Origin: Gammaproteobacteria bacterium
Lineage (GTDB): Bacteria > Pseudomonadota > Gammaproteobacteria > UBA4575
DNA length: 64,000 nt
Assembly (NCBI GenBank): GCA_014075255.1
Contig: CP046178.1
Location: forward strand, 1,504,894 to 1,568,893
Reading direction: 5' to 3'
In this document: piece by piece, positions 5,868 through 49,879 of the stretch
Layout: the number at the start of each line of letters is the position of its first letter
Position numbering within the stretch: position 1 is the first letter of the stretch
Notes under the pieces: generated by a model
The model's input: the letters and a program-made list of their open reading frames with translations, nothing else
Database searches by the model: none
Told to the model about the DNA's origin: nothing
Translations under genes and position numbers: made by a program

Positions 5868-7920
<2,053 letters not shown>

Positions 7921-32436: not shown

Positions 32437-32808
32437 ATGAGACTTAGTAAATCCATAATTTACCTTTTAATACTTTCATTTATTTTTGTACAAATTTCAC
32501 CCGCTTTTGCTGGCATCGTTGGAACGGATAGTTATCTATCTGAGCAAACTATCCAGCAAGACCGTGAAGACTTACGCGCACTTATGTCACGTGACGAGGT
32601 TCGTTTACTACTAGAAACCAATGGCCTGACTATGGAGCAAGCACAAGCGCGTGTGGATTCTCTGACAGATAAAGAAGTAAGCCAGATGGCGAAGAAATTT
32701 GATGAATTACCTGCAGCAGGTGACGCAGCAGTGGTTGTTCTTGTGATCGCTTTAGTTGTATTGGTCCTTGAACTTGCGGGTATTACCGATATCTTTACCG
32801 GCATTTGA
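32437..32808 (+). CDS. PA2779-family-like small secreted protein with hydrophobic C-terminal tail
   Basis: Signal peptide ending AFA, then a ~70-aa soluble segment, a conserved ELPAAG motif and a 30-aa hydrophobic tail. Paralogous to 50316..50677. TGA stop overlaps the TTG start of the next gene. Confidence 0.6.
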   Translation: MRLSKSIIYLLILSFIFVQISPAFAGIVGTDSYLSEQTIQQDREDLRALMSRDEVRLLLETNGLTMEQAQARVDSLTDKEVSQMAKKFDELPAAGDAAVVVLVIALVVLVLELAGITDIFTGI

Positions 32809-33982: not shown

Positions 33983-35677
33983 GTGGCCAAACAAAAAACT
34001 AAAAACAAAGCTAGTAGAAAATATTCCTCGATGGTGGTCGATGGGGTTGAGCGTGCGCCCAGCCGCGCCATGCTACGTGCAGTAGGCTTTGAAGATGCAG
34101 ACTTCAACAAGCCACAGATTGGAATCGCTTCTACCTGGAGCATGGTTACCCCCTGCAATATGCACATCGACAAACTTGCTGATGAGGCTGCAAAAGGCGC
34201 GAACCAGGCTGGTGGCAAAGCGGTAATCTTTAACACCATTACAATCTCCGATGGCATTTCGATGGGCACAGAGGGAATGAAGTACTCCTTGGTGTCTCGC
34301 GAAGTAATTGCTGATTCAATAGAAACGGTGGCAGGTTGTGAAGGTTTCGATGGCATCGTCACCATTGGCGGATGCGACAAAAACATGCCGGGATGTTTGA
34401 TTGCGCTCGCGCGTTTGAATCGTCCCTCAGTATTTGTCTATGGCGGAACAATCATGCCTGGCAATTATAAAAACAAAAAAGTGGATGTGGTTTCCGTTTT
34501 TGAAGCCGTGGGGCAGCACGCTAAAAAAGAATTAAGCGATCAAGAACTTAAGCAAGTTGAGTCGACAGCAATACCTGGCGCCGGCTCATGTGGCGGCATG
34601 TACACCGCCAATACCATGGCTTCAGCTATAGAAGCCTTAGGTATGAGTTTGCCTAATAGTTCCGCACAAAATGCCATTTCAAATGATAAGCAAAATGATT
34701 GCATCGCTGCTGGCGAAGCGGTGATGGATTTAATTAAACAAAATATTTTACCCAAAGATATCATGACTAAAAAAGCGTTCCAAAATGCTATTACGGTTCT
34801 GATTACTCTAGGCGGTTCAACCAATGCAGTACTGCACTTACTTGCCATGGCGCATGCTATGGGAGTGAAACTCACCATTGATGAATTCACTCGCGTGGGT
34901 AAAAAAGTACCGGTTCTTGCAGATCTACGCCCGAGCGGCAAATACATGATGTCCGAGCTGATAGAAATTGGCGGCATCCAACCGCTGATGAAAATGCTCT
35001 TGGACAAAGGATTATTACATGGAGATTGCCTAACGGTGACTGGCAAAACATTGGCGCAAAATTTAAAAACTGTTAAGCCTTATCCAAAGTCGCAAGATAT
35101 TATTCGTGATTTTGATAATCCAATAAAAAAAGACAGCCATCTAGTTATTCTATATGGAAACTTAGCGCCCGAAGGAGCTGTGGCTAAAATTTCCGGCAAA
35201 GAAGGTTTAAATTTCACCGGTAAAGCGCGGGTGTTTGCGTCAGAAGAAAAAGCTTTAGAAAAAATTCTAGATGGTGGAATTAAGAAAGGTGATGTAATCG
35301 TGATTCGCTATGAAGGCCCGCAAGGCGGACCGGGGATGCGCGAAATGTTGTCACCTACTTCTGCAATCATGGGAAAAGGACTCGGCAAAGACGTTGCTTT
35401 AATTACCGATGGCCGCTTCTCAGGCGGTAGTCATGGTTTTGTGGTCGGCCACATCACCCCAGAAGCTGCGGTTGGTGGGCCACTCGCTCTAGTAAAGAAT
35501 GGCGATCAAATCACCATTGACGCACAGAAGCGCGAAATCAACGTGAATCTATCTAAGAAAGAACTCGCGCTGCGTAAAAAGAAATGGACTGCACCTAAAC
35601 CCCGTTATAAACGTGGGGTTTTAGCTAAATATGCAGCACAAGTATCTTCCGCATCAAATGGCGCTGTAACGGACTAA
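33983..35677 (+). CDS. ilvD: IlvD/EDD-family dehydratase (dihydroxy-acid dehydratase-like)
   Basis: GCDKNMPG and SGGSHG motifs with N-terminal similarity to IlvD. 564 aa. GTG start. Confidence 0.8.
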
Positions 35678-35929
35678 CCTAATTGATGGCTCTATAAATT
35701 CGCTTTGATGCAGGGAAGCATCACTGATTTACCAGCACATAAGTGATTGTAAATCGTGAAAAAGATATCGCATTATCGTCTTTCGTCTCTGAAGAACTCA
35801 GAATGGCTTCATTCAGAGCTACTAAGTATCTATAAAGCATAAATTGTCAGGCGTGGAATAAGTAGATAGGATTGCCCGTTCTAATTATTACCACTTTAGT
35901 ATTACCACTAAAACTTTAAGGAGCTGTCG

Positions 35930-36568
35930 ATGGCGGAATTACTCACAGGTAAAGCACTAGAAGAGGTCATAGAGCGCAAAAACAAAATGCGTCGCGAAGC
36001 ATATGACCGCCGTGCTGCACAAGAAAATAAAGAAGAAGTTAGCGCAAAAGCATGTGCAAATTTTATGACACTTCCTGAATACCAAAAATCTAATGTTGCT
36101 ATGTGGTACATCGATTGCCGCTCAGAGACTCGCACTAAAGATGAATTAATTGCAGAAGTTAATAAAGGGGAAAAGAAAATTATTGTTCCTTATTGCACTG
36201 AAGACGAAAATGGCGATAACAAGCTTGGCCTGTGGTGGATGGAAAGCTTGGAAGAAATGGTTGTTGGCAAATGGGACATCCTAGAGCCACCTAAAGAATT
36301 ATGGGGCAACCCAGAAAAAGAAGTAACTCCTGAAGAAATCGACATCATTATGGTTCCAGGCACTGGCTTTGATAAGAAAGGTGGTCGCATGGGTAATGGT
36401 CAAGGCTATTACGATCGTTTACTCGAGCAACTTCGCGCAGATTGTCCTCTAGTAGCACTATGTTATGAGTCACAAATGTTTGATGAAATTCTTGTGGCGC
36501 CTCATGATGTATTCATGGACAAAGTGGTTACTGAAGATGCTGTGTACGAAGGCATCGGTCGAGGTTAA
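35930..36568 (+). CDS. 5-formyltetrahydrofolate cyclo-ligase (MTHFS) family protein
   Basis: Conserved VPGTGFDKKGGRMGNGQGYYDRLL block. 212 aa. Confidence 0.7.
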   Translation: MAELLTGKALEEVIERKNKMRREAYDRRAAQENKEEVSAKACANFMTLPEYQKSNVAMWYIDCRSETRTKDELIAEVNKGEKKIIVPYCTEDENGDNKLGLWWMESLEEMVVGKWDILEPPKELWGNPEKEVTPEEIDIIMVPGTGFDKKGGRMGNGQGYYDRLLEQLRADCPLVALCYESQMFDEILVAPHDVFMDKVVTEDAVYEGIGRG

Positions 36569-36573
36569 TTATT

Positions 36574-37497
36574 ATGGCTGCAAAAATTGATGATACTTAC
36601 GCAGAAGCGTTTAAAAGTCTCTATACAGAATTCTTAATCACTGCACGTGACCGCAAATGGCTAGACCACGCGGTTAATGCTGCAACGGGCAACGCATCAA
36701 GTTCAATCTTGTGTGATTGTGAAGCTGGAATGGATCGCTATGTCGGTCCTGGTGGTGATGAAAGTTTTGAGACTCCTGACGGTCGCCCAGGGGCTATCGT
36801 ACAACTTCACATTCCACGCTTTCGCAAAGATCGTGTAAAAGCGTTAGAAAAATCTGCATTAGTGCGTATCAGTCAAAACGTTATGACTTGCCCTACCGCC
36901 TCATGTTTCAACTTGGTTGATTCAGAAGAGTATTACCATATGGGTCGTAAAGTGGCTTACTTTGGTAACGGTTACCAGAAACGTATCGAACGATTTGGTC
37001 GCAAGATGTGGTGGATTCCAACCCTAGGTGGAGAATTCATTTTAGATCGTCGTCTTGGTTATGCAGATGGGCTCATGGGCGGCAACCTTTGGTTCTTCGG
37101 TGACAGTGTGGATTCTGCACTACTTGCTGCAGAAAAAGGCGTGGAAGCGATCCTACCAATGCCGGGTGTTATCTCAACCTTCCCTGGCGGTATTGCAAGC
37201 AGTGGTTCAAAAGCTGGAAGTAACTACGACTTTACCATTGCCAGCACGTACGAAAAATTCTGCCCAATGTTACAAGATGATCCTACGGTTGAAGCTGGAT
37301 TACCAGAAGGCGTTAACTGTGTAATGGAAATCATCATGAATGGCCAAGGTATGCAACCGATTATTGATGCCACGCAAGCTGCGATTAAAGCTTCGGTAGA
37401 CACACCAGGACTGATTATGATTTCTGCTGGCAACTACAATGGAAAGTTAGGTAAGAGCTTTATCTATCTAGATCCAAGTAAACAGCCTGCTGAATAA
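36574..37497 (+). CDS. formylmethanofuran:tetrahydromethanopterin formyltransferase (Ftr/FhcD) family protein
   Basis: N-terminal IDDTYAEAF...FLITA and ...ETPDGRPGAIVQLHIP match the Ftr family. 307 aa. Confidence 0.7.
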   Translation: MAAKIDDTYAEAFKSLYTEFLITARDRKWLDHAVNAATGNASSSILCDCEAGMDRYVGPGGDESFETPDGRPGAIVQLHIPRFRKDRVKALEKSALVRISQNVMTCPTASCFNLVDSEEYYHMGRKVAYFGNGYQKRIERFGRKMWWIPTLGGEFILDRRLGYADGLMGGNLWFFGDSVDSALLAAEKGVEAILPMPGVISTFPGGIASSGSKAGSNYDFTIASTYEKFCPMLQDDPTVEAGLPEGVNCVMEIIMNGQGMQPIIDATQAAIKASVDTPGLIMISAGNYNGKLGKSFIYLDPSKQPAE

Positions 37498-37516
37498 TTA
37501 AGTAGTACATGTTTAA

Positions 37517-37548
37517 AAAAAGCCGCTACTTCTAGCGGCTTTTTTTTT
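37517..37548 (+). terminator. intrinsic terminator after the Ftr-like gene
   Basis: aaaaaaa-agccgcta-cttc-tagcggct-ttttttttt, a bidirectional-looking hairpin. Confidence 0.6.
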
Positions 37549-37616
37549 GCGTAACCTAATTTAGGTATCACTTCCCCCACCTATCCTAAACACAAGTTCT
37601 AAAGCATAATATTCAA

Positions 37617-38507
37617 ATGACTACAGAATTTTCCAAACAATATGAAAGGACTCCTGGCGGCGCAATCCTTATGAATGGAAGCGTGGTTGCCGAAGCTGTT
37701 CAAAGTAAAATAGCCAAGCAGCTAGCACAATCTCCTAACGCAAAGGTAACGCTTGCCACCGTTCTAATAGGAGACGATCCCGCTAGCAAACTTTATGTGG
37801 GCATGAAAGAAAAACGTGCAGCCGCCATTGGCATTCAATCCAAGCATGTTGAACTCGCTGGCAATATATCCATGTCACAAGCCTGTGAAGAAATTATTAA
37901 GCTTGCGAATGATCCAAGCGTGCATGGAATCTTGATTCAGTTACCGTTACCCAAACAACTCGACACACATAAAATTATCGATTTATTGCCGCCTGAAAAA
38001 GATGTCGATGGTTTAAGTGAAAATAATCTGGGCAAACTAATTCGTGGTGTACCTGGATTAGTGCCCTGCACCCCTCTTGGCGTGATGCGCATACTCGAAC
38101 ACTATGAAATAGAAACCAGTGGCAAGCGCGCCGTGGTTATCGGACGCTCTACTTTAGTTGGCCTCCCTCAAGTTTTATTACTAGGCCGTAAAGGCACAGA
38201 TGCCACGGTAACTTTGGCTCATTCTCGTAGTGGTAATATTGGCAAATTTACAAAATCAGCAGACATTGTGATTGCCGCAGCCGGAATTGCCCATCTTGTT
38301 AAACAGGAACACATCAAACCAGGCGCTACTGTGATTGATGTAGGCGTCACTCGAACCGATGAAGGTATTCGCGGTGATGTAGATTTTGATGCCGTGCAAT
38401 CAATAGCGGGTGCCATCACACCTATGCCAGGTGGCACAGGACCTATGACGGTAGCTTGTTTACTAGAAAACACTTTGTATGCGGCCAAATTACAAAACAC
38501 CTTATAA
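37617..38507 (+). CDS. folD: bifunctional methylene-H4F dehydrogenase / methenyl-H4F cyclohydrolase
   Basis: Full-length FolD similarity (LIGDDPAS, HGILIQLPLP, VPCTPLG, VVIGRS, PMPGGTGPMT). Confidence 0.9.
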   Translation: MTTEFSKQYERTPGGAILMNGSVVAEAVQSKIAKQLAQSPNAKVTLATVLIGDDPASKLYVGMKEKRAAAIGIQSKHVELAGNISMSQACEEIIKLANDPSVHGILIQLPLPKQLDTHKIIDLLPPEKDVDGLSENNLGKLIRGVPGLVPCTPLGVMRILEHYEIETSGKRAVVIGRSTLVGLPQVLLLGRKGTDATVTLAHSRSGNIGKFTKSADIVIAAAGIAHLVKQEHIKPGATVIDVGVTRTDEGIRGDVDFDAVQSIAGAITPMPGGTGPMTVACLLENTLYAAKLQNTL

Positions 38508-38749
38508 GCAATGCTCACTGCAAATTGATACAACACATTCGCTAAAACCACTTTTATATCCCTATAATACCCAACTCGTAATATGCAAATGGCTTGAGCC
38601 ACTTTAGGGCTTATGGCAAGATGCTTGACCTTTCGCGCGACTTGTTTGCACGTAAATATATTGGCAGCTCTGGCCATCTCGAATAAAAACTATATATAGC
38701 GGAGCTACTTCTAAACTAAAAATTAATATCACTTATAAAGGTTCTCTTA

Positions 38750-40015
38750 ATGCCTGGACAAAAACTGTCTTATCCTGGAAAAAATTATTTATTCTGCCCA
38801 GGCCCAACACACATACCACAAGCAGTACAAAACGCAATGATCGTTCCTCAAGAAGATCACCGTGCACCAGATTTTCCGGAACTCGTTAAGCCTTTATTAC
38901 GCGACGTTAAAAAGATTTTCAAAACCACTAAAGGCACATGCTTTTTATTCCCAGCAACCGGTACAGCGGGTTGGGAAATTGCCTTAGCAAACACCATGTC
39001 ACCAGGTGACAAAATCTTAACTACACGTTTTGGTCAGTTCAGCCACTTATGGTACGACCTGGCTTGCCGCATCGGCTTGGAAGTTGATCTAATTGAAACT
39101 CCATGGGGTGAAGGTGTTCCTGTTGAGAAGTTTAAGAAAATTCTCCTAGCAGATAAGAATCATGAAATTAAAGCTGTTGTTTGTTGCCATAACGAAACTG
39201 CAACGGGTGTGACCAGTGATATTGGTGCAGTTGGCAAAATGCTAAAGCAAATTAAGCATCCTGCATTATTAATGGTGGACTGTGTAAGTTCTGTTGCCAG
39301 TATCGATTTCCAAATGGATAAATGGGGCGTTGATATCGCGGTAAGTGGTTCTCAGAAAGGCTTCATGCTTCCAGCAGGCATGGCTATCTTGGCATTCAGC
39401 CCACGCGCATTAGCAAAACGTAAATCTGCAAAATGTGCACGCTGTTTCTTGGATATTCAAGACCACATTAATACCAACAAAGATGGTTTCTTCCCTTACA
39501 CTCCATCTGTACCCATGTTACGTGGACTGCGTGCGTCGATTGATTTGATTTTAGGCGAAGGTCTTGATAACTGTCACAAACGTCATTACCGTCTTGCAGA
39601 AGGTGTGCGTCTTGCGGTTAAAGCATGGGGCTTAAAAACTTGTGCAAAATCTTCTAAGTTGAATTCAGATACCGTAACTGCAATATTGGTTCCTGAAAAC
39701 AAAAATGCGAATGAAGTAATCCATATTGCATACCATAAGTACAACATTTCATTAGGTGCTGGCTTATCTAAAGTTGCGGGTAAGGTTTTCCGCATCGGTC
39801 ACCTTGGCGATAACAACGAAGCGCGTATGATGGCAGCTTTAGGTACTGTAGAAATGGCACTGCTAGACGCAGGCATTAAAATTAAGCCAGGAAGTGGCGT
39901 TGCTGCTGCAGGTGAGTACTACCGCAAGACCGGCAAGAAAATTAAAAAGTTTGCTGCTCCGAAAGCAGCACCTAAGAAAAAAGCACCGGCTAAAAGAAAA
40001 GCCCCCAAGAAATAA
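38750..40015 (+). CDS. sga: serine--glyoxylate aminotransferase (class V aminotransferase) with K/A/P-rich C-terminal tail
   Basis: Class V fold with the PLP-lysine context SGSQKG. Serine-cycle gene neighbourhood. About 25 extra C-terminal residues: KKIKKFAAPKAAPKKKAPAKRKAPKK. Confidence 0.85.
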   Translation: MPGQKLSYPGKNYLFCPGPTHIPQAVQNAMIVPQEDHRAPDFPELVKPLLRDVKKIFKTTKGTCFLFPATGTAGWEIALANTMSPGDKILTTRFGQFSHLWYDLACRIGLEVDLIETPWGEGVPVEKFKKILLADKNHEIKAVVCCHNETATGVTSDIGAVGKMLKQIKHPALLMVDCVSSVASIDFQMDKWGVDIAVSGSQKGFMLPAGMAILAFSPRALAKRKSAKCARCFLDIQDHINTNKDGFFPYTPSVPMLRGLRASIDLILGEGLDNCHKRHYRLAEGVRLAVKAWGLKTCAKSSKLNSDTVTAILVPENKNANEVIHIAYHKYNISLGAGLSKVAGKVFRIGHLGDNNEARMMAALGTVEMALLDAGIKIKPGSGVAAAGEYYRKTGKKIKKFAAPKAAPKKKAPAKRKAPKK

Positions 40016-40060
40016 ATAACGAATAGAAAATAAATAGATAACAAATAGAAGGTACATACT

Positions 40061-41002
40061 ATGAGTTTTACACAACCTACACCAGCAAGATCAAGAGTAC
40101 AGCGATGTGAACTTGCTGTTCCTGCATCCAGCGTTAAAATGATTGAAAAATCAGCCGACTGCGATGCAGACTTCGTATTTTTAGATTTAGAAGATGCTGT
40201 TGCTCCTGGAGACAAAGTACAAGCACGCAAGAATGCAATCGAAGCCGTAAATGGTATCGACTGGGCAGGCAAAGGAAAAACCATTGTAGTGCGTATTAAC
40301 GGTCTTGATACTCATTTCATGTATCGTGATGTCATTGATCTTGTTGAACAAGCGGGTAGTAAGCTAGATACGATTTTTATTCCAAAAGTAGGTGACCCAG
40401 CAGACGTATACATGGTGGATGCACTTCTTACTCAAATAGAAGAAGCAAAAGGGTTTAAAAACAAAATAGCCATAGAAGCAATCATTGAAACCGCACTAGG
40501 CATGGCCAATGTAGAAGCCATTGCACAATCTAGCCCACGCCTAGAAGCCTTGCACTTTGGTGTGGCGGACTATTCAGCAAGTACTCGTGCACGTACGGTC
40601 AATATCGGTGGCTTAAATCCTGATTATCCTGGCGATCAATGGCATTCCGCTATTTCACGCATGGTGGTTGCATGTCGTGCATACGGATTGCGTCCTATTG
40701 ATGGTCCATTTGGTGATATCAAGGATCCTGAAGGCTACATGCTTGCATGCCGTCGTGGCGCAGCATTAGGTATTGAAGGTAAGTGGGCCATCCACCCATC
40801 ACAAATCGAAATGGCGAATGAGGTATTTTCTCCACCAGAAGCTGAAGTAGCCAAGGCGCATCGAATTCTTGAAGAACTCGAAAAAGCAGCTAAAGAAGGT
40901 AAAGGCGCGGCAACATTAGATGGCAAAATGATCGATGCGGCTTCTGCAAAAATGGCAGAAAATGTTGTTAGAGCAGCTGAGGCCATTGCTGCGAAGTCAT
41001 AA
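40061..41002 (+). CDS. mcl: malyl-CoA lyase (HpcH/CitE family)
   Basis: CitE/HpcH-like aldolase fold. 313 aa. Sits between sga and mtkAB. Confidence 0.8.
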   Translation: MSFTQPTPARSRVQRCELAVPASSVKMIEKSADCDADFVFLDLEDAVAPGDKVQARKNAIEAVNGIDWAGKGKTIVVRINGLDTHFMYRDVIDLVEQAGSKLDTIFIPKVGDPADVYMVDALLTQIEEAKGFKNKIAIEAIIETALGMANVEAIAQSSPRLEALHFGVADYSASTRARTVNIGGLNPDYPGDQWHSAISRMVVACRAYGLRPIDGPFGDIKDPEGYMLACRRGAALGIEGKWAIHPSQIEMANEVFSPPEAEVAKAHRILEELEKAAKEGKGAATLDGKMIDAASAKMAENVVRAAEAIAAKS

Positions 41003-41048
41003 AGTTAGAATTACCTAACTTTTATTGTTGTTATTTTTTATGTCCTAG

Positions 41049-41080
41049 GTGCCCGCATTGCGGGCACTTTTGTTTCTTCC
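41049..41080 (+). terminator. intrinsic terminator after mcl
   Basis: gtgcccgc-att-gcgggcac followed by ttttgtttctt. Confidence 0.6.
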
Positions 41081-41274
41081 TTTTAGAATTTCTATTTTTG
41101 CCCATCCTTATTGCTCATGAATTGAGCAATTACCCAACAAGAGAGTTTGTCCTTGGGCGTCAGAATAGGCTATAAAAGTCGTTTGGTCTGCCGAAATTAC
41201 AACGATCTATAAGGCGGCCTCCAAGATTAAGCCAATAAGATAAAAACGAATCATTTTCTCGGGAGGGAATTTTA

Positions 41275-42450
41275 GTGGATATCCATGAGTATCAAGCAAA
41301 AGAAATATTATCCGAGTGCGGCGTAGGCATAGCAGCAGGTGGACTAGCATATAGCCCTGAACAAGCAGTTTACCGAGCCAAAGAAATTGGTGGCAGCAAA
41401 TGGGCCATTAAAGCACAAATACACTCTGGTGCTCGCGGCAAAGCTGGCGGTATCAAGCTATGCAGCAATGACGAAGAAATTTGGAATGCAGCGGATGAAC
41501 TATTAGGCAAACGCTTGGTAACTCACCAAACTGGCCCTGCCGGCAAAGTGGTATATCGACTTTACGTCGAGCAAGCTACGGATATTTTAAAAGAACTTTA
41601 TTTAGCACTGGTACTTGATCGCGATAAGCAACGTGTTGTTTTTGTAACCTCAACTGAAGGTGGTATGGATATCGAAGAAGTGGCTGCAACCAAGCCTGAA
41701 GCGATTCACAAATTAGAAGTTGAGCCTGCAGTAGGTCTGCGTGACTTTCAAGCACGCGAACTTGCTTTCGCATTAGGCATAAAGCCTGAACTTACGAGCC
41801 AAGCCGTTCACACAATCAAAGGTGCATATCGTGCATTCCGTGATTACGATGCGACTATGGTTGAAATCAACCCTATGGTCATTACTAAAGATGATCGCGT
41901 ATTAGCACTCGATGCAAAAATGGGTTTTGACGACAACGCATTATTCCGCCGTCCACGGATTGCAGAACTGCGTGATAAATCGCAAGAAGATCCTCGCGAA
42001 ACAGCGGCGTCAGATCGAGGCTTAAGTTATGTAGGCCTAGATGGCGATATCGGTTGCATGATCAATGGTGCCGGTCTTGCTATGGCCACCATGGACATGA
42101 TTAAGCATAAAGGCGGCGAACCGGCCAACTTCCTAGATATTGGTGGTGGCGCTTCACCAGAACGTGTTACCAGTGCATTCAAATTAGTACTTGATGATGA
42201 AAAGGTAAAAGCAATATTAGTTAATATTTTTGCTGGTATTAATCGTTGCGATTGGATCGCCGAAGGTGTTGTACAAGCGTTTGAAAAATTAGAGGTGAAA
42301 GTACCGGTTATCGTACGACTTTCTGGCACCAATGTTGAAAAAGGTATGCAAATACTAAAAGACAGCGGTCAACCACTCATTACAGCGGATACTTTAGACG
42401 AAGCCGCACAAAAAGCGGTAGCCGAACGCAACCGTGTTGCAAAAGGCTAG
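41275..42450 (+). CDS. mtkA: malate--CoA ligase beta subunit (succinyl-CoA synthetase beta-like)
   Basis: ATP-grasp N-terminal [12 protein letters not shown]. Paired with an alpha subunit in the serine-cycle cluster. Confidence 0.85.
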
Positions 42451-42461
42451 GGAGAAATAAA

Positions 42462-43352
42462 ATGACAATAATGATTGATGAAAATACTAAAGTTCTTGTT
42501 CAAGGTTTTACTGGCAAAATCGGAACCTTTCACGCTGAAGAAATGATTGAGTACGGTACCAAAGTGGTGGGTGGTGTTACTCCTGGAAAAGGTGGTCAAA
42601 CACACATGGGATTACCTGTGTTTAATACAGTTAAAGATGCCGTAGCAAGCACCGGTGCCGAAGCTAGTATCGTATTTGTTCCAGGTGGCTATGCTGCAGA
42701 TGGAATTATGGAAGCTGCCGATGGAGGGATTAAAACTTGTGTTTCCATCACGGATGGAATTCCCGCTCAAGACATGATGCGTGTTAAACGTTATATGTAT
42801 CGCTACAAAAAAGAAGATCGTATGCGCCTAACCGGCCCTAACTGTGCTGGTAGCATCAGCCCAGGAAAATGTTTATTGGGCATTATGCCTGGCCATATTT
42901 ATGAAACCGGAAATGTGGGAGTAGTTGCGCGTTCTGGCACACTCGGCTATGAAGCTGCATCACAAATGAAAGCATTAGGCATCGGTATTAGCACCAGTAT
43001 TGGTATCGGTGGCGACCCCATCAACGGAAGTTCACACAAGGATATCTTAGAGTTATTTGAAGCGGATCCTGAAACCAAAGCGGTGATGATGATTGGTGAA
43101 ATTGGTGGCCCACAAGAAGCGGAAGCTGCCGAATACTTTAAAGAGCATATGACCAAACCTTTGGTTGCTTATATTGCAGGTTTAACTGCACCGAAAGGTC
43201 GTCGCATGGGTCACGCAGGCGCGATAGTTTCAGGCAAAGGTGAGAGTGCTGCGGAGAAAGTAGAAATGCTAGAAGAAGCAGGTGTTATTGTTGCGCCAAA
43301 TCCATCTGAGCTAGGCTCAACGATGGAAAGAGTAATGAAAGACATCTCGTAG
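42462..43352 (+). CDS. mtkB: malate--CoA ligase alpha subunit
   Basis: CoA-binding Rossmann fold with the phosphohistidine loop GHAGAIVSG. 296 aa. Confidence 0.85.
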   Translation: MTIMIDENTKVLVQGFTGKIGTFHAEEMIEYGTKVVGGVTPGKGGQTHMGLPVFNTVKDAVASTGAEASIVFVPGGYAADGIMEAADGGIKTCVSITDGIPAQDMMRVKRYMYRYKKEDRMRLTGPNCAGSISPGKCLLGIMPGHIYETGNVGVVARSGTLGYEAASQMKALGIGISTSIGIGGDPINGSSHKDILELFEADPETKAVMMIGEIGGPQEAEAAEYFKEHMTKPLVAYIAGLTAPKGRRMGHAGAIVSGKGESAAEKVEMLEEAGVIVAPNPSELGSTMERVMKDIS

Positions 43353-43377
43353 TTGAAGCTTGTAGGAGAGAATAATA

Positions 43378-44349
43378 ATGAGCAAATTAAAAGTAATCGT
43401 TTCACGCGCCTGGCCTGAAGAAGTTCAAGCCACGTTACGAGAAAAATATGACGTAACGTTGAATGAAAATGACGTGGCCATGTCCAAAGATGAAATGAAA
43501 GAAGCATTAGCTAACTGTGATGCATTTTTACCAACTGTAACTGATCCAGTAGATGCAGAAGTACTCAGTGCAGAACCATTACGCGCAAAGTTCATTGGTA
43601 ACTTTGGTGTTGGTTTTAACCACATCGATTTAGATGCTGCCAAAGCACGCGGCTTAACCGTTACTAATACACCTGAAGTATTAACTGCTTGTACTGCGGA
43701 TATTGCAATGACTTTGATGTTAACGGTTGCACGTCGCACCAGTGAAGGCGAAAGAGAATTACGCTCTAAGTCTTGGGCTGGATGGCGCCCTACTCACTTG
43801 TTAGCCACCAAAGTCACTGGCAAGACATTAGGTTTAATTGGCATGGGACGTATTGCACAAGCCATGGCACAACGCGCGCATCATGGCTTCGGTATGAAAA
43901 TCATTTTTTCTGATCCTTACCCACCTCCTGCTGACGTAATTAAGAAGTACAATGCGCAACAAGTAGACTCGATAGATGAAGTATTAGCCAATTCTGATTT
44001 TGTTTCTATTCACTGCCCAGGCGGAAAAGATACTTACCATCTATTAAATAAAGAAAGCCTTGCGAAAATGAAGCCTTCTGCATTTTTAATCAACTCTGCT
44101 CGTGGAGATGTAATTGATAATGATGCACTCATCGAAGCTCTTAAGAGTGGTGTAATTGCAGGTGCAGGCCTTGATGTTTTTGAAGGAGAACCCGCGTTAG
44201 ATGAGCGTTTTCTAGAACTTGAGAATGCTGTTCTACTTCCGCACTTAGGTAGTGCCTCTATCGAGACACGCGTAGCCATGGGCAATCGAGTGCTTGAGAA
44301 CCTAGAGGCATTTGAAGCAGGCGAAACTCCACGAGATAAGCTCGTATAA
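43378..44349 (+). CDS. hprA: hydroxypyruvate reductase / D-isomer-specific 2-hydroxyacid dehydrogenase
   Basis: GxGxxG motif LGLIGMGRIAQ. D-2-hydroxyacid dehydrogenase catalytic residues. Serine-cycle context. Confidence 0.75.
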   Translation: MSKLKVIVSRAWPEEVQATLREKYDVTLNENDVAMSKDEMKEALANCDAFLPTVTDPVDAEVLSAEPLRAKFIGNFGVGFNHIDLDAAKARGLTVTNTPEVLTACTADIAMTLMLTVARRTSEGERELRSKSWAGWRPTHLLATKVTGKTLGLIGMGRIAQAMAQRAHHGFGMKIIFSDPYPPPADVIKKYNAQQVDSIDEVLANSDFVSIHCPGGKDTYHLLNKESLAKMKPSAFLINSARGDVIDNDALIEALKSGVIAGAGLDVFEGEPALDERFLELENAVLLPHLGSASIETRVAMGNRVLENLEAFEAGETPRDKLV

Positions 44350-44423
44350 GCCAGTAGATAGGCCATCATCGGCCAATCTATGCCCATTCGGGCATATCAA
44401 AATGGCTAGATCAGTCCTATTAT

Positions 44424-44450
44424 GAAGAGGTCCTTTTTTGGACCTCTTTT
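44424..44450 (+). terminator. intrinsic terminator after hprA
   Basis: agaggtcc-tttttt-ggacctct followed by tttt. A smaller hairpin tatgccc-attc-gggcata lies at 44379..44396. Confidence 0.6.
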
Positions 44451-44487
44451 ACTATGTGTAGCTTAAAATTATTAATCTAAAACAAGT

Positions 44488-47265
44488 ATGACTGACAACG
44501 ACTCCCCGCTTTCCTGGACGCAACTTACCAAGGTTGCCACCGGCAGTATGATTATCAATCCTGCGGCATCCTATGAAGATGAATTAGTAGAGTTACTTTA
44601 TCAACAACTACTAAGTGTTATTCGAGCGCGTCAACCTGATATCGAAGCTTATTTTAATGGTCAGCAAGATATTCGCGACTGCCCTACTTCAAAAATTCTA
44701 TATGTCCTGCAAACCTATGGAATATGGTTCCAACTATTAAGCATTGCTGAACAAAATGCCATGGTGCAGCAACGTCGACAAATTGAAAAAGAATATAATC
44801 GTGATCGTGTACCTGGCACTTTTGCGTATTCCTTCTCAAGTGCTGAGCAAAAAGGTATTTCCGCAGAAGATATTCAAACCTTACTAAATAATAGTTTAAT
44901 CAGCCCTGTAATCACAGCGCACCCTACAGAAGCGAAACGTGTAACGGTATTAGAAGTACATCGTCGAATCTATGTATTACTTAAACAGTTAGAACTCGAA
45001 CGCTGGACCCCTAGAGAAAGAGATGACTTAGCTAATGAACTTCGCAACGAAATTGATTTACTTTGGTTAACGGGCGAAATTCGTTTAGAAAAGCCCAGTG
45101 TTGGACAAGAAGTAACTTGGGGCTTGCACTTTTTTGTTGAATCATTATTTGATGGTGTAAAAGAACTGTATGTAGAATTGGATCGCGCATTAGAACAAGC
45201 CTATCCTCATTATGAATTTAAAGTGCCTCCTATTTTCCGTTTTGGATCATGGATTGGCGGAGACCGTGATGGAAACCCAAATGTCACACATAAAGTTACT
45301 GCTTCCGCAATACAAACGAATGCTAAAGCATGCATTAAACGTTATCGGCAAGATATTTTTGAGCTTGGTTCTAAATTAAGTATTGCTAATCATTCAGTCA
45401 ACGTTTCAGAAAACTTTACTAAAGTTTTACAAGAAAAACTTGGAATGCTGGGCGAAACAGAAGCCTATTCACAACGCAATCCAGGTGAAATATTTAGGCA
45501 GTACTTGCGTTACATGTTGGCCAGAATTGATGCGACCTTGAAGCATATTAATGATCCAAGTAAGTCTAAAATTGCCTATCATCGTGCAGCAGATTTATCG
45601 GCGGACCTCTATCTTCTGGAACAAGGACTATCCGATGCCAAATGCGGACATTTAAGTGATGCAGATGTACGACCTCTGCGACACATGGTGGACACCTTTG
45701 GATTTAGAACGGTTAGCTTAGACATTCGAGAAAATACTACGGTAGTTAATAGTGTGCTAGCAGAGATATGGCAAGCATTGCACCAAAAAACTCATATAGA
45801 TTTACCTGATCCAACATCTGAAGAATGGAATAACTGGATTGTTAATCAATTAACGCAACCTCTACGTGTAGTTCCTCGTTTCGATAATTTATCCAAACAA
45901 GCGCAATCTACGTTGGCCATGCTCGAACAAGTTAAGTATTTCCAAAACAAACTAGATCGAAAAGCATTTGGTGTATGCGTATTAAGTATGACGCAAACCG
46001 CAACGGATGTGCTGGGTGTATATCTATTAGCAAAGTATGTAGGACTATTTACTGATTCTGATGGACTTGAAGCATGTCGCATTATGATTGTGCCACTGCT
46101 AGAGACTATTGATGATCTTGAAAACGGCCCAGCTGTATTAGAAGAACTTTTAGAACATGCATTTGTGCGACGCACGATTAAAAAATTCGGTGGCTCACAA
46201 GAGGTTATGGTGGGTTACTCAGATTCTAACAAAGATGGCGGCTTTCTTACCTCTAACTGGATTATCAGCAAAGCTCAATCAGAAATACATGCAGCTGGTG
46301 AAAAACATAAAGTACCGATTTCATTTTTCCATGGTCGTGGCGGCTCGGTGAGTCGTGGCGGTGCGCCGAGTGGTCGTGCGATTGCCGCGCAACCGGTTGG
46401 CACTATTGATGGCCGTATGCGAGTTACCGAACAAGGTGAAGTGGTTTCATATAAATACGCAAACCGTGGCTTTGCTGAAGAACAAATGGAAATTTTGGCT
46501 TCCAGTGTCATCACGCACTCACTTATGTCCGGCAAAGACCCTGCATACCAAAGCAATTCAGAATTAGATGAAGTGCTAGAAGCGCTTTCTGGAACCGCCT
46601 ATGTCGCGTATCGAAAATTAATTGAGCACCCGGGTTTAGTCGACTTTTATCAGCAAGCCAGTCCAGTTGAAGAATTAACCTTAATGAAAATTGGTTCGCG
46701 CCCTGCGCGACGCTTTGGTGCAGCCTCTCTAGATGATCTACGCGCTATTCCTTGGGTATTTGCATGGACGCAAAATAGACTGCTAGTCCCTGGCTGGTAT
46801 GGAGTAGGTAGCAGCTTAGAGCAAATCATCAAGATACGTGGTGAACTCGGCACAGATCTCCTTAATAAAATGTACGAGAAACACCCGCTGTTTAAATTAA
46901 TATTAGACGGTGCTGAAAAAACACTTTTACTAGTAGATATGGAAGTTGCTGAGAAGTATTGCGAACTGGTTACAAACGAAGAACATCGAACTCAGATATT
47001 CTCTGACATAAAAGAAGAATATGAACTGACGAAGAATAATATATTAAAAATTACTGGCGAAGACCAGCTCTGTGATCGCTTCCCTAATTTTAAACGCCAC
47101 TTCTATCGACGCATCGAATCACTCAATCAAGTGGGTATTGAACAGGTAGAACTAGTGAAGAAATTTCGAAGCGAAGGCGATGAAATCCAAAATATAGAAG
47201 ACGTGTTAGTTCCACTATTGTTATCCATTAACTGCGTAGCAGCGGGGATAGGCAGTACTGGTTAA
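44488..47265 (+). CDS. ppc: phosphoenolpyruvate carboxylase
   Basis: VTAHPTE and GRGGSVSRGG motifs. 925 aa. Confidence 0.9.
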   Translation: MTDNDSPLSWTQLTKVATGSMIINPAASYEDELVELLYQQLLSVIRARQPDIEAYFNGQQDIRDCPTSKILYVLQTYGIWFQLLSIAEQNAMVQQRRQIEKEYNRDRVPGTFAYSFSSAEQKGISAEDIQTLLNNSLISPVITAHPTEAKRVTVLEVHRRIYVLLKQLELERWTPRERDDLANELRNEIDLLWLTGEIRLEKPSVGQEVTWGLHFFVESLFDGVKELYVELDRALEQAYPHYEFKVPPIFRFGSWIGGDRDGNPNVTHKVTASAIQTNAKACIKRYRQDIFELGSKLSIANHSVNVSENFTKVLQEKLGMLGETEAYSQRNPGEIFRQYLRYMLARIDATLKHINDPSKSKIAYHRAADLSADLYLLEQGLSDAKCGHLSDADVRPLRHMVDTFGFRTVSLDIRENTTVVNSVLAEIWQALHQKTHIDLPDPTSEEWNNWIVNQLTQPLRVVPRFDNLSKQAQSTLAMLEQVKYFQNKLDRKAFGVCVLSMTQTATDVLGVYLLAKYVGLFTDSDGLEACRIMIVPLLETIDDLENGPAVLEELLEHAFVRRTIKKFGGSQEVMVGYSDSNKDGGFLTSNWIISKAQSEIHAAGEKHKVPISFFHGRGGSVSRGGAPSGRAIAAQPVGTIDGRMRVTEQGEVVSYKYANRGFAEEQMEILASSVITHSLMSGKDPAYQSNSELDEVLEALSGTAYVAYRKLIEHPGLVDFYQQASPVEELTLMKIGSRPARRFGAASLDDLRAIPWVFAWTQNRLLVPGWYGVGSSLEQIIKIRGELGTDLLNKMYEKHPLFKLILDGAEKTLLLVDMEVAEKYCELVTNEEHRTQIFSDIKEEYELTKNNILKITGEDQLCDRFPNFKRHFYRRIESLNQVGIEQVELVKKFRSEGDEIQNIEDVLVPLLLSINCVAAGIGSTG

Positions 47266-47305
47266 ATTTTAAAAACTAAAAATAATAAGACCTAAAATAA
47301 TAAAC

Positions 47306-48163
47306 ATGAAAAAACTTTTATACCATTTTGATACCGATGCTATACCTAGCGTATTTGACTCAGTCGTCGCTTACGATGGTGGCGCCGATCATGTAACTCA
47401 ACTAGGTGGCGTCAATGAAGAAAATTGTGGCGGCCTCGTAGAAGGTGCAATCTATACACGTGCCCCAAAAGACAAAAAGAATACTGCAATTTTTGTAGGG
47501 GGCAGTGATCTAATTGAAGGTCAAAGGCTTTTTCAACTAGTACATGATCAGTTTTTTCAAAACTTCCGTGTATCGGTTATGTTAGACAGCAATGGTTGCA
47601 ATACCACCTCAGCAGCAGGCGTTGCGCTGTTGAGCAAAGCAACTAATTTGCAAGACAAAACTGCAGTAGTGCTCGCTGGCACCGGTCCGGTAGGGCAGCG
47701 TGCAGCAGTGTTACTCGCTAAAAGTGGCGCTAAGGTTCGGCTTACCTCCCGCAAACAGTCCCGCTCAGTGGAAGCCTGTGATGAAATGCGCGAGCGCTTT
47801 GGCGTTGTAATGACGCCTATGCAAGCCAGTGACGATGAATCCATACAAGCTGCAATGGATGGCGCCCATGTCGTATTTGGCGCAGCAAAAGCGGGAATTC
47901 AATTACTCAATGCTAAACAGTGGCAAGATCATCCTACTTTAGAACTGATTGCGGATGTAGGCACCTCTAAAATTCTAGGATTTGAAGGCATTGATGTGAT
48001 GGATAAAGATACTGAACGCCATGGCAAGCGAGTGTTTGGTGGCATCGGCATTGGAGCACTAAAACTAAAACTGCACCGTGCATGCATTGCTAAACTATTC
48101 GAATCAAATGATATTGCATTGGATGCAGAAGCTATTTATAAAATAGCTCAGAGCATGGCTTAA
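47306..48163 (+). CDS. mtdA: NAD(P)-dependent methylene-tetrahydromethanopterin/methylene-H4F dehydrogenase
   Basis: N-terminal LLYHFDTDAIPSVFDSVVAYDGGADHV...IYTR...TAIFVGG closely resembles Methylobacterium MtdA. 285 aa. Confidence 0.8.
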   Translation: MKKLLYHFDTDAIPSVFDSVVAYDGGADHVTQLGGVNEENCGGLVEGAIYTRAPKDKKNTAIFVGGSDLIEGQRLFQLVHDQFFQNFRVSVMLDSNGCNTTSAAGVALLSKATNLQDKTAVVLAGTGPVGQRAAVLLAKSGAKVRLTSRKQSRSVEACDEMRERFGVVMTPMQASDDESIQAAMDGAHVVFGAAKAGIQLLNAKQWQDHPTLELIADVGTSKILGFEGIDVMDKDTERHGKRVFGGIGIGALKLKLHRACIAKLFESNDIALDAEAIYKIAQSMA

Positions 48164-49349: not shown

Positions 49350-49482
49350 ACACATGGACGATGTGTGAGTACAGGGACTATGTGCAGGATGCACAAGTGT
49401 CGTGTGAGATAGGATGTCGGAAGCGACCGTACGAATAAGAGGCGCATCCTAGACGATGCCTTCAAATTAACTCTTTTACCTA

Positions 49483-49510
49483 ATGTCCGCTTTCGGCCAA
49501 TAGCGGACAT
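49483..49510. repeat. palindromic hairpin element, copy 1 (atgtccgct-N10-agcggacat)
   Basis: 9-bp perfect inverted repeat with a 10-nt loop. Near-identical arms to the copy at 50273..50300. Confidence 0.5.
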
Positions 49511-49526
49511 TAAACATTCCTTAAGA

Positions 49527-49802: not shown

Positions 49803-49879
49803 ACATCACTCCTAATCTTTAATACTTGTAAATATTAATGAGAATGATTATCATTTGCAAGTAGGCTAATGGAGTATTT

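What the first reader, a model, noticed from the sequence alone, without database searches (positions are those of the whole stretch)
33983..48163. Serine-cycle / C1-transfer gene island in a low-GC gammaproteobacterium, with a lone Ftr-like gene beside an MTHFS-like gene
The gene order is: MTHFS-like, Ftr/FhcD-like, folD, sga, mcl, mtkA, mtkB, hprA, ppc, mtdA. All are on one strand. The intergenic gaps carry terminators, implying several transcription units. This is the complete glyoxylate-regenerating half of the serine cycle plus both H4F-linked and H4MPT-linked C1 dehydrogenases. The arrangement differs from the two-operon layout known from Methylobacterium. An Ftr-family formyltransferase without the other Fhc subunits, placed next to a 5-formyl-H4F cyclo-ligase homolog, is unusual. 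It may mark a distinct formyl-transfer step.
Basis: partly seen in the sequence, partly recalled or inferred. Interest (0 to 1): 0.5.

Follow-up and report, generated by a model that had tools for sequence, protein, structure and literature searches.

The report
Serine-cycle island with orphan Ftr–MTHFS pair
An uncultured marine gammaproteobacterium carries a serine-cycle carbon-assimilation island that opens with a tightly coupled gene pair, a folate-repair-type ligase and a methanogen-type formyltransferase, which recurs in about 80 species apparently without that enzyme's usual partners and may be an undescribed way of loading formyl groups onto folate.

Summary
The gene list is correct, but the start coordinate belongs to ilvD; the island proper is 35930-48163. 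It reads MTHFS-like, Ftr-like, folD, sga, mcl, mtkA, mtkB, hprA, ppc, mtdA, all on the + strand, with three clear intrinsic terminators.

The serine-cycle part is ordinary and was recently reported for related cultured bacteria. The MTHFS-like/Ftr-like pair is not ordinary.
- The Ftr-like protein is full length and keeps the catalytic Glu.
- It forms its own long-branch subfamily: at least 78% identity within about 80 species, but only 45% to archaeal Ftr and 37% to FhcD.
- It is the most conserved gene of the neighbourhood across genomes of 31-66% GC.
- Its start lies -4 to +20 nt from the MTHFS-like stop in 77 of 77 loci.
- No fhcABC was found near it. No close Mch was found on 24 closed chromosomes that carry it.
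- One relative (bin114) has a complete H4MPT/methylofuran island in which this trio occupies the place of fhcBADC.

Best reading (about 0.4): Ftr-like formylates N5 of H4F, MTHFS closes it to methenyl-H4F using ATP, and FolD/MtdA feed the serine cycle. The pair would replace FtfL and Fch. This is unproven, and the formyl donor is unknown in most carriers.

The parts
35844..35872 (+). Promoter-like site (TTGTCA-17-TAGGAT) in the 252-nt ilvD/MTHFS gap. Candidate promoter of the MTHFS-Ftr unit.
   Evidence: This is a consensus match only; promoter-like sites in the region are fewer than in shuffles.
35930..36568 (+). MTHFS-like gene (5-formyltetrahydrofolate cyclo-ligase family, 212 aa).
   Evidence: PF01812 at full length, 125 bits. 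TIGR02727 126 bits, cutoff 84.9. Aligns to PDB 1sou, 1ydm and 3hxt with the GxGxGYYDR motif kept.
36574..37497 (+). Ftr-like formyltransferase (307 aa), member of a distinct subfamily. Its start is 5 nt after the MTHFS-like stop.
   Evidence: PF01913 and PF02741 at full length. TIGR03119 293.4 bits, cutoff 292.6. 232 bits to archaeal Ftr 1m5h and 167 bits to FhcD 6s6y_D. Separate long branch in the tree. Catalytic Glu (E252) kept; the near-invariant Arg at M. kandleri position 22 is Glu here.
37515..37548 (+). Intrinsic terminator AAAAAAAGCCGCTACTTCTAGCGGCTTTTTTTTT. It ends the MTHFS-Ftr transcription unit.
   Evidence: Sequence and RNAfold of the gap. Weak Rfam hits all centre on this hairpin.
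37617..38507 (+). folD (bifunctional methylene-H4F dehydrogenase / methenyl-H4F cyclohydrolase).
   Evidence: PF00763 and PF02882. FolD NCBIfam models score about 297 bits, below their equivalog cutoffs.
38750..40015 (+). sga (serine-glyoxylate aminotransferase).
   Evidence: 443 bits to SGAT 6pk1. The BhcA model scores 579 bits, below its cutoff of 650.
40061..41002 (+). mcl (malyl-CoA lyase).
   Evidence: 404 bits to 5ugr and 324 bits to 4l9y, both malyl-CoA lyases.
41047..41069 (+). Intrinsic terminator after mcl (10-bp stem, 7 GC pairs, T-rich tail).
41275..42450 (+). mtkA (malate-CoA ligase beta subunit).
   Evidence: NF010647 694.5 bits, cutoff 604.
42462..43352 (+). mtkB (malate-CoA ligase alpha subunit).
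   Evidence: CoA_binding and Ligase_CoA domains. Succinate-CoA ligase alpha model 431 bits. Assigned as mtkB by its pairing with mtkA.
43378..44349 (+). hprA (hydroxypyruvate reductase / D-glycerate dehydrogenase).
   Evidence: 246 bits to 1gdh and 257 bits to glyoxylate reductase 6bii.
44424..44453 (+). Intrinsic terminator after hprA (GAAGAGGTCC-TTTTTT-GGACCTCTTTT).
44488..47265 (+). ppc (phosphoenolpyruvate carboxylase).
   Evidence: NF000584 792 bits, cutoff 815. PF00311 in the identical locus L082.
47306..48163 (+). mtdA (NADP-dependent methylene-H4F/methylene-H4MPT dehydrogenase orthologue).
   Evidence: PF09176 Mpt_N. 317 bits to M. extorquens MtdA 1lu9/6tge over the full length.

Best explanation
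The region is a serine-cycle assimilation island of an uncultured marine gammaproteobacterium. Its first transcription unit is a translationally coupled MTHFS-like/Ftr-like gene pair.

Proposed pathway (inferred, not shown):
1. The Ftr-like enzyme transfers a formyl group onto N5 of tetrahydrofolate. This is the chemistry Ftr performs on N5 of H4MPT.
2. The MTHFS-like enzyme spends ATP to close N5-formyl-H4F irreversibly to 5,10-methenyl-H4F.
3. FolD and/or MtdA reduce methenyl-H4F to methylene-H4F.
4. Methylene-H4F enters the serine cycle (SHMT, then Sga, HprA, Ppc, MtkAB, Mcl).

The pair would thus do the job of formate-H4F ligase plus methenyl-H4F cyclohydrolase (FtfL plus Fch) at the same cost of one ATP.

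In the relative bin114, which has H4MPT and methylofuran genes, the formyl donor would be formyl-methylofuran or formyl-H4MPT, which would bypass the Fhc complex and free formate. In the majority of carriers, probably including this genome, the donor is not identified.

What is shown: gene identities, the operon structure, the conservation of the pair, the separate subfamily, the absence of Fhc genes nearby, and the bin114 arrangement.
For: - Pairing: the MTHFS-like gene sits immediately upstream of the Ftr-like gene in every locus where the sequence allows (77 of 77). The stop-to-start distance is -4 to +20 nt, most often the TAATG overlap. In the window the pair has its own terminator.
- folD follows the pair in most lineages. 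Where folD is missing (L019-L030, L047), mtdA is still in the island. MTHFS yields methenyl-H4F directly, so no cyclohydrolase is needed in that case.
- The island contains no ftfL and no fch, which are the genes that feed the serine cycle in Methylobacterium (comparison from established knowledge).
- Distinct subfamily: at least 78% identity inside the clade, one 65% outlier (P0121), then 47% or less. Identity is 45% to archaeal Ftr and 37% to FhcD.
- Strong purifying selection: in the most distant tier the median identity is 79.7%, against 73.5% for ilvD, 53% for folD and 51% for ppc, across genomes of 31-66% GC.
- The catalytic Glu and 36 other family-invariant residues are kept. The near-invariant Arg at M. 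kandleri position 22 is Glu in 100% of the clade, and there are two clade-specific insertions.
- Some canonical Ftr/FhcD relatives occur as apparent fusions to FhcA-like or FhcC-like domains, and canonical fhcD lies inside fhcBADC clusters. The clade never does either.
- No H4MPT or Fhc gene lies within 10 kb in 79 of 80 loci.
- None of the 24 closed chromosomes over 1 Mb that carry the Ftr-like gene appears among carriers of the 120 closest Mch relatives or their cluster members.
- bin114 (CP070821.1) has a full H4MPT/MfnB island. The position held by fhcBADC-fae in its nearest relatives is instead taken by an aminotransferase, hprA and MTHFS-Ftr-folD. No FhcA is found on that chromosome, although the same method recovers Mch and FhcA together on about 20 other contigs.
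- The cultured relative IMCC57338 has the serine cycle with fhs and folD, and no ftr, mch or fwd KO is listed for it.
Against: - No biochemical evidence exists for any Ftr-family enzyme using H4F.
- The protein still just passes the NCBIfam FhcD equivalog cutoff (293.4 vs 292.6) and keeps most family-invariant residues, which fits an unchanged substrate pair.
- bin114 keeps MfnB and Mch, so at least there the enzyme may work canonically with methylofuran and H4MPT.
It is not a whole-genome search. H4MPT biosynthesis genes and ftfL could not be searched in the carrier genomes.
- MTHFS next to folD and serine-cycle genes could be explained simply as salvage of the 5-formyl-H4F that SHMT makes as a side product.
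- The formyl donor in genomes without methylofuran or H4MPT is unexplained.
Confidence: 0.4

Rival explanations
1. Canonical function. The Ftr-like protein is simply this lineage's FhcD/Ftr. It moves formyl groups between H4MPT and methylofuran in formaldehyde oxidation, and fae, mtdB, mch, fhcABC and the cofactor genes lie elsewhere in the genome. MTHFS sits beside it only because it salvages 5-formyl-H4F in a cell with a high SHMT flux.
For: - It passes the NCBIfam FhcD and PRK02114 cutoffs.
- It shares 37 invariant residues with canonical enzymes, including the catalytic Glu.
- In bin114 it lies next to a complete H4MPT/MfnB island.
- A dual-specificity MtdA is part of the island.
Against: - No Fhc or H4MPT gene lies within 10 kb in 79 of 80 loci.
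- No close Mch is found on 24 closed chromosomes that carry the gene.
- No FhcA is found on the bin114 chromosome. Without a hydrolase, formyl-methylofuran would be a dead end.
- Universal translational coupling to MTHFS is hard to explain by coincidence.
- The protein sits on a long separate branch and carries the Arg-to-Glu switch at M. kandleri position 22.
Confidence: 0.25
2. Folate damage control. Both proteins act on 5-formyl-H4F, the inhibitory side product of SHMT. MTHFS recycles it with ATP. The Ftr-like enzyme removes the formyl group to an amine acceptor, or hydrolyses it, in the way glutamate formyltransferase does. The two are parallel rather than sequential steps.
For: - The trio MTHFS-Ftr-folD also occurs without serine-cycle genes nearby, in Ca. 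Oxydemutatoraceae and some Ca. Porisulfidus loci. This suggests a general folate role.
- MTHFS matches the standard equivalog model.
- From established knowledge: 5-formyl-THF inhibits SHMT, and MTHFS is its main recycling enzyme.
Against: - Two enzymes for the same disposal job are redundant in streamlined genomes of 1.6-2.1 Mb.
- Operon partners with a translational overlap are more often sequential steps or a complex.
- No acceptor can be named.
Confidence: 0.15
3. All-H4MPT module. The MTHFS-like protein is an ATP-dependent 5-formyl-H4MPT cyclo-ligase that replaces or reinforces Mch. Together with Ftr it would drive formyl-methylofuran to methenyl-H4MPT in the reductive direction, and MtdA would reduce that product.
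For: - MTHFS homologues of unknown role exist in methanogens that lack folate, and a 5-formyl-H4MPT role has been suggested for them (PMC3087415).
- Absence of Mch in most carriers would then not imply absence of H4MPT.
- MtdA accepts H4MPT in M. extorquens, by homology.
Against: - bin114 has both Mch and the MTHFS-like gene.
- The H4F-specific FolD is the next gene in most lineages.
- The MTHFS-like protein fits the bacterial folate equivalog model.
- No H4MPT biosynthesis genes were seen in any locus except bin114.
Confidence: 0.1

Closest known systems
Formylmethanofuran:H4MPT formyltransferase (archaeal Ftr: PDB 1ftr/2fhj, 1m5h, 1m5s; bacterial FhcD of the Fhc complex: 6s6y_D)
   Same: Same two-lobe Pfam architecture over the full length. 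About 45% identity to archaeal Ftr. The catalytic Glu (Glu245 in M. kandleri) and motifs such as ETPDGRPG, FPGG..SGSK.G and AGNY.G.LG are kept.
   Different: - Separate long-branch subfamily.
- The near-invariant Arg at M. kandleri position 22 is replaced by Glu, and there are two clade-specific insertions.
- It is never clustered or fused with fhcA, fhcB or fhcC. It is always preceded by an MTHFS gene.
- Most carrier genomes show no close Mch.
Methylobacterium (Methylorubrum) extorquens serine-cycle gene cluster (sga-hprA-mtdA-fch and mtkA-mtkB-ppc-mcl) plus ftfL
   Same: The same serine-cycle-specific enzymes (Sga, HprA, MtkAB, Mcl, Ppc) and an MtdA orthologue are clustered on one strand.
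   Different: The gene order differs. There is no fch and no ftfL in the island; FolD and the MTHFS-Ftr pair are there instead. There are at least four transcription units, delimited by three terminators. The Methylobacterium layout is taken from established knowledge and was not re-examined here.
5-formyltetrahydrofolate cyclo-ligase (MTHFS / YgfA; PDB 1sou, 1ydm, 3hxt)
   Same: Full-length PF01812. Above the TIGR02727 equivalog cutoff. The GxGxGYYDR motif is present.
   Different: Translationally coupled to an Ftr-family gene in every relative examined. It scores poorly against the E. coli-type YgfA model NF007661 (45 bits, cutoff 343).
Serine cycle reported in cultured Arenicellales UBA868 (IMCC57338; bioRxiv 10.64898/2026.04.01.715867)
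   Same: A marine oligotrophic gammaproteobacterium with a complete KEGG serine pathway, read as assimilation of C1 units from methylated amines.
   Different: That genome (49% GC) lists fhs and folD, and no ftr, mch or fwd KO. The paper does not mention any Ftr or MTHFS module. The window has 35-45% GC and carries the pair.
Glutamate formyl/formimidoyltransferase (FT domain of FTCD, EC 2.1.2.5)
   Same: From established knowledge, this is the one known enzyme type that moves a formyl group between an N-formyl compound and N5 of H4F, giving or using 5-formyl-H4F. That is the reaction type proposed here.
   Different: It belongs to an unrelated sequence family. No such domain is in the window. 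The analogy is functional only and was not tested.

Membership tests
Ftr/FhcD formyltransferase family | Full-length two-lobe architecture (PF01913 distal lobe plus PF02741 proximal lobe). | tested here: met
   Residues 4-149 and 153-299 of 307 match the full profiles. The protein aligns over residues 3-300 to PDB 1ftr, 1m5h and 1m5s. An AlphaFold model was too poor to add anything (pLDDT 52).
Ftr/FhcD formyltransferase family | Catalytic glutamate (Glu245 in M. kandleri Ftr, Glu252 in FhcD). | tested here: met
   E252 in VMEIIMNG aligns to Glu245 and is invariant in the clade. Its role is described in PMC6926001.
Ftr/FhcD formyltransferase family | Score above the curated equivalog cutoff. 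| tested here: met
   TIGR03119 293.4 bits, cutoff 292.6. NF002554 311 bits, cutoff 297. Both are only marginally above.
Ftr/FhcD formyltransferase family | Genomic association with FhcABC/Fwd subunits and other H4MPT-pathway genes (mch, fae, mtdB). | tested here: not met
   None in the 64-kb window. None within 10 kb in 79 of 80 related loci. Canonical islands do show fhcB-A-D-C. The exception is bin114, which has an adjacent H4MPT island but no fhc genes there.
Ftr/FhcD formyltransferase family | The carrier genome encodes H4MPT and methanofuran/methylofuran biosynthesis. | tested here: inconclusive
   No close Mch on the 24 closed carrier chromosomes, but only top-120 lists and cluster members could be inspected. 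mptG and mfnB could not be searched genome-wide. bin114 does encode them.
Ftr/FhcD formyltransferase family | Catalyses formyl transfer between formyl-methanofuran and H4MPT. | not testable with these tools
   This needs an enzyme assay.
5-formyl-H4F cyclo-ligase (MTHFS) | Equivalog-level profile match and the ATP/folate-binding GxGxGYYDR motif. | tested here: met
   TIGR02727 126.3 bits, cutoff 84.9. GNGQGYYDRLL aligns to the motif in 1sou and 1ydm.
5-formyl-H4F cyclo-ligase (MTHFS) | ATP-dependent conversion of 5-formyl-H4F to 5,10-methenyl-H4F. | not testable with these tools
   This needs an enzyme assay. Activity on 5-formyl-H4MPT should be tested in parallel.
Serine cycle for C1 assimilation | Pathway-specific enzymes Sga, HprA, malate thiokinase (MtkAB), malyl-CoA lyase and Ppc are present. 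| tested here: met
Serine cycle for C1 assimilation | The remaining enzymes (GlyA, glycerate kinase, enolase, malate dehydrogenase) and a glyoxylate-regeneration route. | tested here: inconclusive
   Not in the 64-kb window. They need not be clustered. The rest of the genome could not be searched.
Methylotrophy (primary C1 oxidation module) | Methanol or methylamine dehydrogenase, the N-methylglutamate pathway, or methane monooxygenase. | tested here: inconclusive
   None in the window. The related cultured UBA868 strains use methylated amines according to genome annotation.

The most novel reading that the evidence does not exclude
The Ftr-like protein is the first folate-linked member of the Ftr family: an N5-formyl-H4F-forming formyltransferase, possibly accepting both H4MPT and H4F. 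Together with MTHFS it would form an ATP-driven route from a formyl carrier to methenyl-H4F that needs neither formate-H4F ligase nor the Fhc complex. In most of its roughly 80 carrier species, which are abundant marine and sponge-associated Gammaproteobacteria, it would work in cells that have no H4MPT or methanofuran at all.
Probability: 0.3. Interest if true: 0.8.

Novelty: new variant of a known kind. Interest (0 to 1): 0.6.

Why it matters
Ftr is regarded as an enzyme tied to methanofuran and H4MPT, the C1 carriers of methanogens and classical methylotrophs. A strongly conserved Ftr subfamily that is locked to a folate enzyme (MTHFS) and to FolD, in genomes that seem to lack the H4MPT pathway, would have three consequences.
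- It would add a new entry point for formyl groups into the folate pool.
- It would change how C1 assimilation is reconstructed in widespread mesopelagic and sponge-symbiont Gammaproteobacteria, where automatic annotation currently calls this gene 'formylmethanofuran--H4MPT formyltransferase'.
- It would give a concrete pair of small soluble proteins to test.

If the pair instead proves canonical, the finding is only a rearranged serine-cycle island, which is already known for relatives.

Tried and rejected
- Idea that the whole clade lacks H4MPT: rejected in that absolute form. bin114 (L050/L091) has a full H4MPT/MfnB island next to the trio.
- MTHFS-Ftr fusion protein (P0234): rejected. It is a frameshift-ridden translation of a high-GC contig.
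- The gene upstream of the 65%-identical outlier P0121 (L085) as a hidden MTHFS: no similarity and no Pfam hit. That Ftr-like gene is an orphan in a contig with no C1 genes nearby (organism not identified).
- AlphaFold2 model of the Ftr-like protein: mean pLDDT 52 from a shallow alignment of sequences at least 78% identical. Not used, and no fold search was run.
- Riboswitch or leader upstream of the C1 genes (THF, ZTP, glycine): none. The only weak Rfam hits are generic matches to the terminator hairpin.
- Pattern scan for promoters and terminators: counts are no higher than in shuffles. Terminators were identified by folding the gaps instead.
- Identification of the window with the cultured UBA868 genus: unlikely. 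That genus has 49% GC and no ftr KO.
- Residue-level assignment of H4MPT and methanofuran contacts: the structural paper (J Mol Biol 2006) is not held, and the Fhc paper lists them only in a supplement. Only family-wide conservation could be compared.
- Literature searches for an Ftr/MTHFS or folate-dependent Ftr module found nothing relevant.

Full report
**What is there.** The window has 35-45% GC. Apart from the island it holds housekeeping genes only: LPS core synthesis, thiC with a TPP riboswitch, glnE, ilvE, an ABC transporter, a PA2778/PA2779 pair, argE and argA.

The ORFs between 33983 and 48163 are all on the + strand. Profile and PDB searches identify them as follows.
- ilvD, 33983-35677.
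- MTHFS-like, 35930-36568.
- Ftr-like, 36574-37497.
- folD, 37617-38507.
- sga, 38750-40015.
- mcl, 40061-41002.
- mtkA, 41275-42450.
- mtkB, 42462-43352.
- hprA, 43378-44349.
- ppc, 44488-47265.
- mtdA, 47306-48163.

These assignments rest. Its start coordinate is one gene too early.

**Transcription units.** A consensus scan finds no excess of terminator-like sites (17 against 15.5 in shuffles). Folding the intergenic gaps shows three textbook intrinsic terminators: after Ftr (37515-37548), after mcl (41047-41069) and after hprA (44424-44453). The likely units are [MTHFS-Ftr], [folD], [sga-mcl], [mtkA-mtkB-hprA] and [ppc-mtdA]. The Ftr start codon lies 5 nt after the MTHFS stop. No riboswitch or leader was found.

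**The organism.** The exact Ftr-like protein occurs on MAG contigs that are colinear with the window. WLWG01000413.1 of GCA_012263365.1 differs by a handful of substitutions and one single-base indel over 20.9 kb. Related loci come from uncultured Gammaproteobacteria from seawater and sponges. Their record titles are 'Thiotrichales', 'Chromatiales', Ca. Porisulfidus and Ca. Oxydemutatoraceae, and many are closed chromosomes of 1.6-2.9 Mb. I infer a position in or near the Arenicellales/UBA10353-LS-SOB group from those titles and. This placement was not tested phylogenetically.

**The serine-cycle part is not new.** A 2026 preprint on the first cultured UBA868 (Arenicellales) strains reports a complete KEGG serine pathway and reads it as assimilation of C1 units from methylated amines. 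Its Table S9 lists fhs (K01938) and folD, but no module containing ftr, mch or fwd KOs. The text never mentions Ftr, formyl or methanopterin. That genome has 49% GC, so it is not the window's organism. It shows that a relative runs the serine cycle with the usual formate-H4F ligase and without an Ftr.

**The Ftr-like protein.** It is not truncated. Both Pfam lobes match end to end, and it aligns over residues 3-300 to the solved archaeal Ftr structures at about 45% identity. Identity to FhcD of M. extorquens is lower (167 bits, 37%). It keeps the catalytic glutamate (Glu245 in M. kandleri numbering; role described in PMC6926001) and 36 other positions that are near-invariant in the family.

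It is nevertheless a family apart.
- An exhaustive search of 1.84 billion representatives shows a clade at 65% identity or more, then a drop to 47% or less. The clade sits on its own long branch in a neighbour-joining tree.
- It only just reaches the FhcD equivalog cutoff (293.4 vs 292.6).
- The Arg at M. kandleri position 22 is present in 94% of canonical sequences but is Glu in 100% of the clade. The clade also has two insertions, GPGGDESF before ETPDG and PRFRKDRVKA. Whether these line a cofactor cleft could not be checked.

**Conservation of the module.** In 80 species-level genome loci the MTHFS-like gene is always the gene immediately upstream (77 of 77 loci where sequence is available). 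The stop-to-start spacing is -4 to +20 nt, most often the overlapping TAATG.
- folD follows in most lineages. It is absent at this site in one sub-clade (L019-L030, L047), where sga follows directly and mtdA is kept.
- In Ca. Oxydemutatoraceae and some Ca. Porisulfidus the trio stands without serine-cycle genes nearby.
- The carrier genomes range from 31 to 66% GC. Even so, the Ftr-like protein stays 78-98% identical.
- In the most distant tier it is the most conserved gene of the neighbourhood: median 79.7%, against 75.8% for MTHFS, 73.5% for ilvD, 53% for folD and 51% for ppc.

**Partners that are missing.** Some canonical Ftr/FhcD representatives occur as apparent fusions to FhcA-like (P0142) or FhcC-like (P0165) domains. 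In ordinary H4MPT islands fhcD lies inside fhcB-fhcA-fhcD-fhcC next to fae, mptG, mtdB and mch. A tblastn search with 19 proteins of such an island against the window and all loci found hits in one locus only.

That locus, L050/L091, is the closed chromosome CP070821.1 (bin114, 2.6 Mb). It has the complete cofactor and oxidation island: mptG, mtdB, mch, fae, ATP-grasp genes, a pabB-like gene and MfnB for the furan cofactor. Where its closest relatives carry fhcBADC-fae, it carries a class-V aminotransferase, hprA and, divergently, MTHFS-Ftr-like-folD.

I searched with FhcA of its nearest relative and inspected the cluster members. No FhcA was found on that chromosome, although the same contig-length matching recovers Mch and FhcA together for about twenty other contigs.

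I also searched with the bin114 Mch. Among the 120 closest relatives (down to 61% identity) and the members of the 20 largest clusters, none lies on any of the 24 closed chromosomes over 1 Mb that carry the Ftr-like gene. This argues, but does not prove, that most carriers, probably including the window's genome, have no H4MPT pathway.

**Interpretation.** The constant partner is MTHFS, whose only known substrate is N5-formyl-H4F. Ftr chemistry formylates N5 of a reduced pterin. FolD or MtdA follow, and both use methenyl-H4F, which is the MTHFS product. The island has neither ftfL nor fch.

The most economical reading has three steps.
1. The Ftr-like enzyme makes N5-formyl-H4F.
2. MTHFS pulls the reaction with ATP to methenyl-H4F.
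3. FolD or MtdA reduce it to methylene-H4F for the serine cycle.

The overall stoichiometry equals that of FtfL plus Fch, by inference from established thermochemistry of these reactions. In bin114 the donor would be formyl-methylofuran or formyl-H4MPT, which would explain both the missing Fhc complex and the retained MfnB.

The weak point is the donor in genomes without those cofactors. I cannot name one. I put this reading at about 0.4.

Rival readings:
- An ordinary FhcD with its partners elsewhere, with MTHFS present only for salvage (0.25).
- A 5-formyl-H4F disposal pair (0.15).
- An all-H4MPT module with an ATP-dependent 5-formyl-H4MPT cyclo-ligase, as once suggested for methanogen MTHFS homologues (PMC3087415) (0.1).

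**Novelty and verdict.** Ten full-text searches found no description of an Ftr/MTHFS module or of a folate-dependent Ftr. Public annotations call the gene 'formylmethanofuran--tetrahydromethanopterin N-formyltransferase'.

The serine-cycle island is a new member of a known kind. The Ftr-like/MTHFS-like pair is a new variant of a known enzyme family with an unresolved and possibly new function. It is directly testable with two small soluble proteins and a genome census. Interest is 0.6.

Noticed in passing
window 25360-28298 (- strand), indel at about 26914: glnE (glutamine synthetase adenylyltransferase) is split into two ORFs (463 and 475 aa) by a one-base deletion in a T run, relative to the otherwise near-identical MAG contig WLWG01000413.1, where the gene is an intact 965 aa. 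This is probably a homopolymer sequencing error and not a pseudogene.
   Followed up: yes
window 7800-7920 (- strand): A TPP riboswitch (62 bits, above the gathering score) lies upstream of thiC (5868-7760).
   Followed up: no
L050 / L091 (CP070821.1, about 2,021,869-2,051,135): A closed 2.6-Mb gammaproteobacterial MAG has a complete H4MPT/methylofuran gene island. The usual fhcB-A-D-C-fae block is replaced by a class-V aminotransferase, hprA and a divergent MTHFS-Ftr-like-folD. No FhcA was detectable on that chromosome by contig-length matching.
   Followed up: partly
L085/L086 10001-10939: The only member of the Ftr-like subfamily at intermediate identity (P0121, 65%) is a lone gene with no MTHFS and no C1 genes within 10 kb. 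It sits in a 52-kb contig of 56% GC; flanking genes include ThuA, FliD, a GntP permease and a HEAT-repeat protein. The organism was not identified.
   Followed up: partly
loci L003, L036, L039, L041-L046, L063 (mcl gene) versus their neighbours: mcl identity to the window is out of step with the flanking genes. Examples: L003 has mcl at 80% but sga at 96% and mtkA at 97%. L039-L046 have mcl at 91-94% but sga at 77-81% and mtkA at 74-78%. This suggests recombination or exchange of mcl alleles between lineages.
   Followed up: no
window 8009-10422 (+ strand): A GFO/IDH/MocA-type oxidoreductase is followed, with touching stop and start codons, by a 461-aa radical SAM protein. The latter gives only weak matches to viperin-like and tungsten-cofactor maturase models. 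Both sit at the edge of the LPS-core gene cluster. Function unclear.
   Followed up: no
window 49350-49879: A 530-nt non-coding stretch after argE has a strongly negative predicted folding energy (-128 kcal/mol). It has no significant Rfam match; the only hit is a chance-level CRISPR-DR6 match at E = 0.73.
   Followed up: no
window 32437-33815 (+ strand): A PA2779-family protein and a PA2778-family C39-like cysteine peptidase form an overlapping gene pair just upstream of ilvD. The pair is also present in the near-identical MAG contigs.
   Followed up: no
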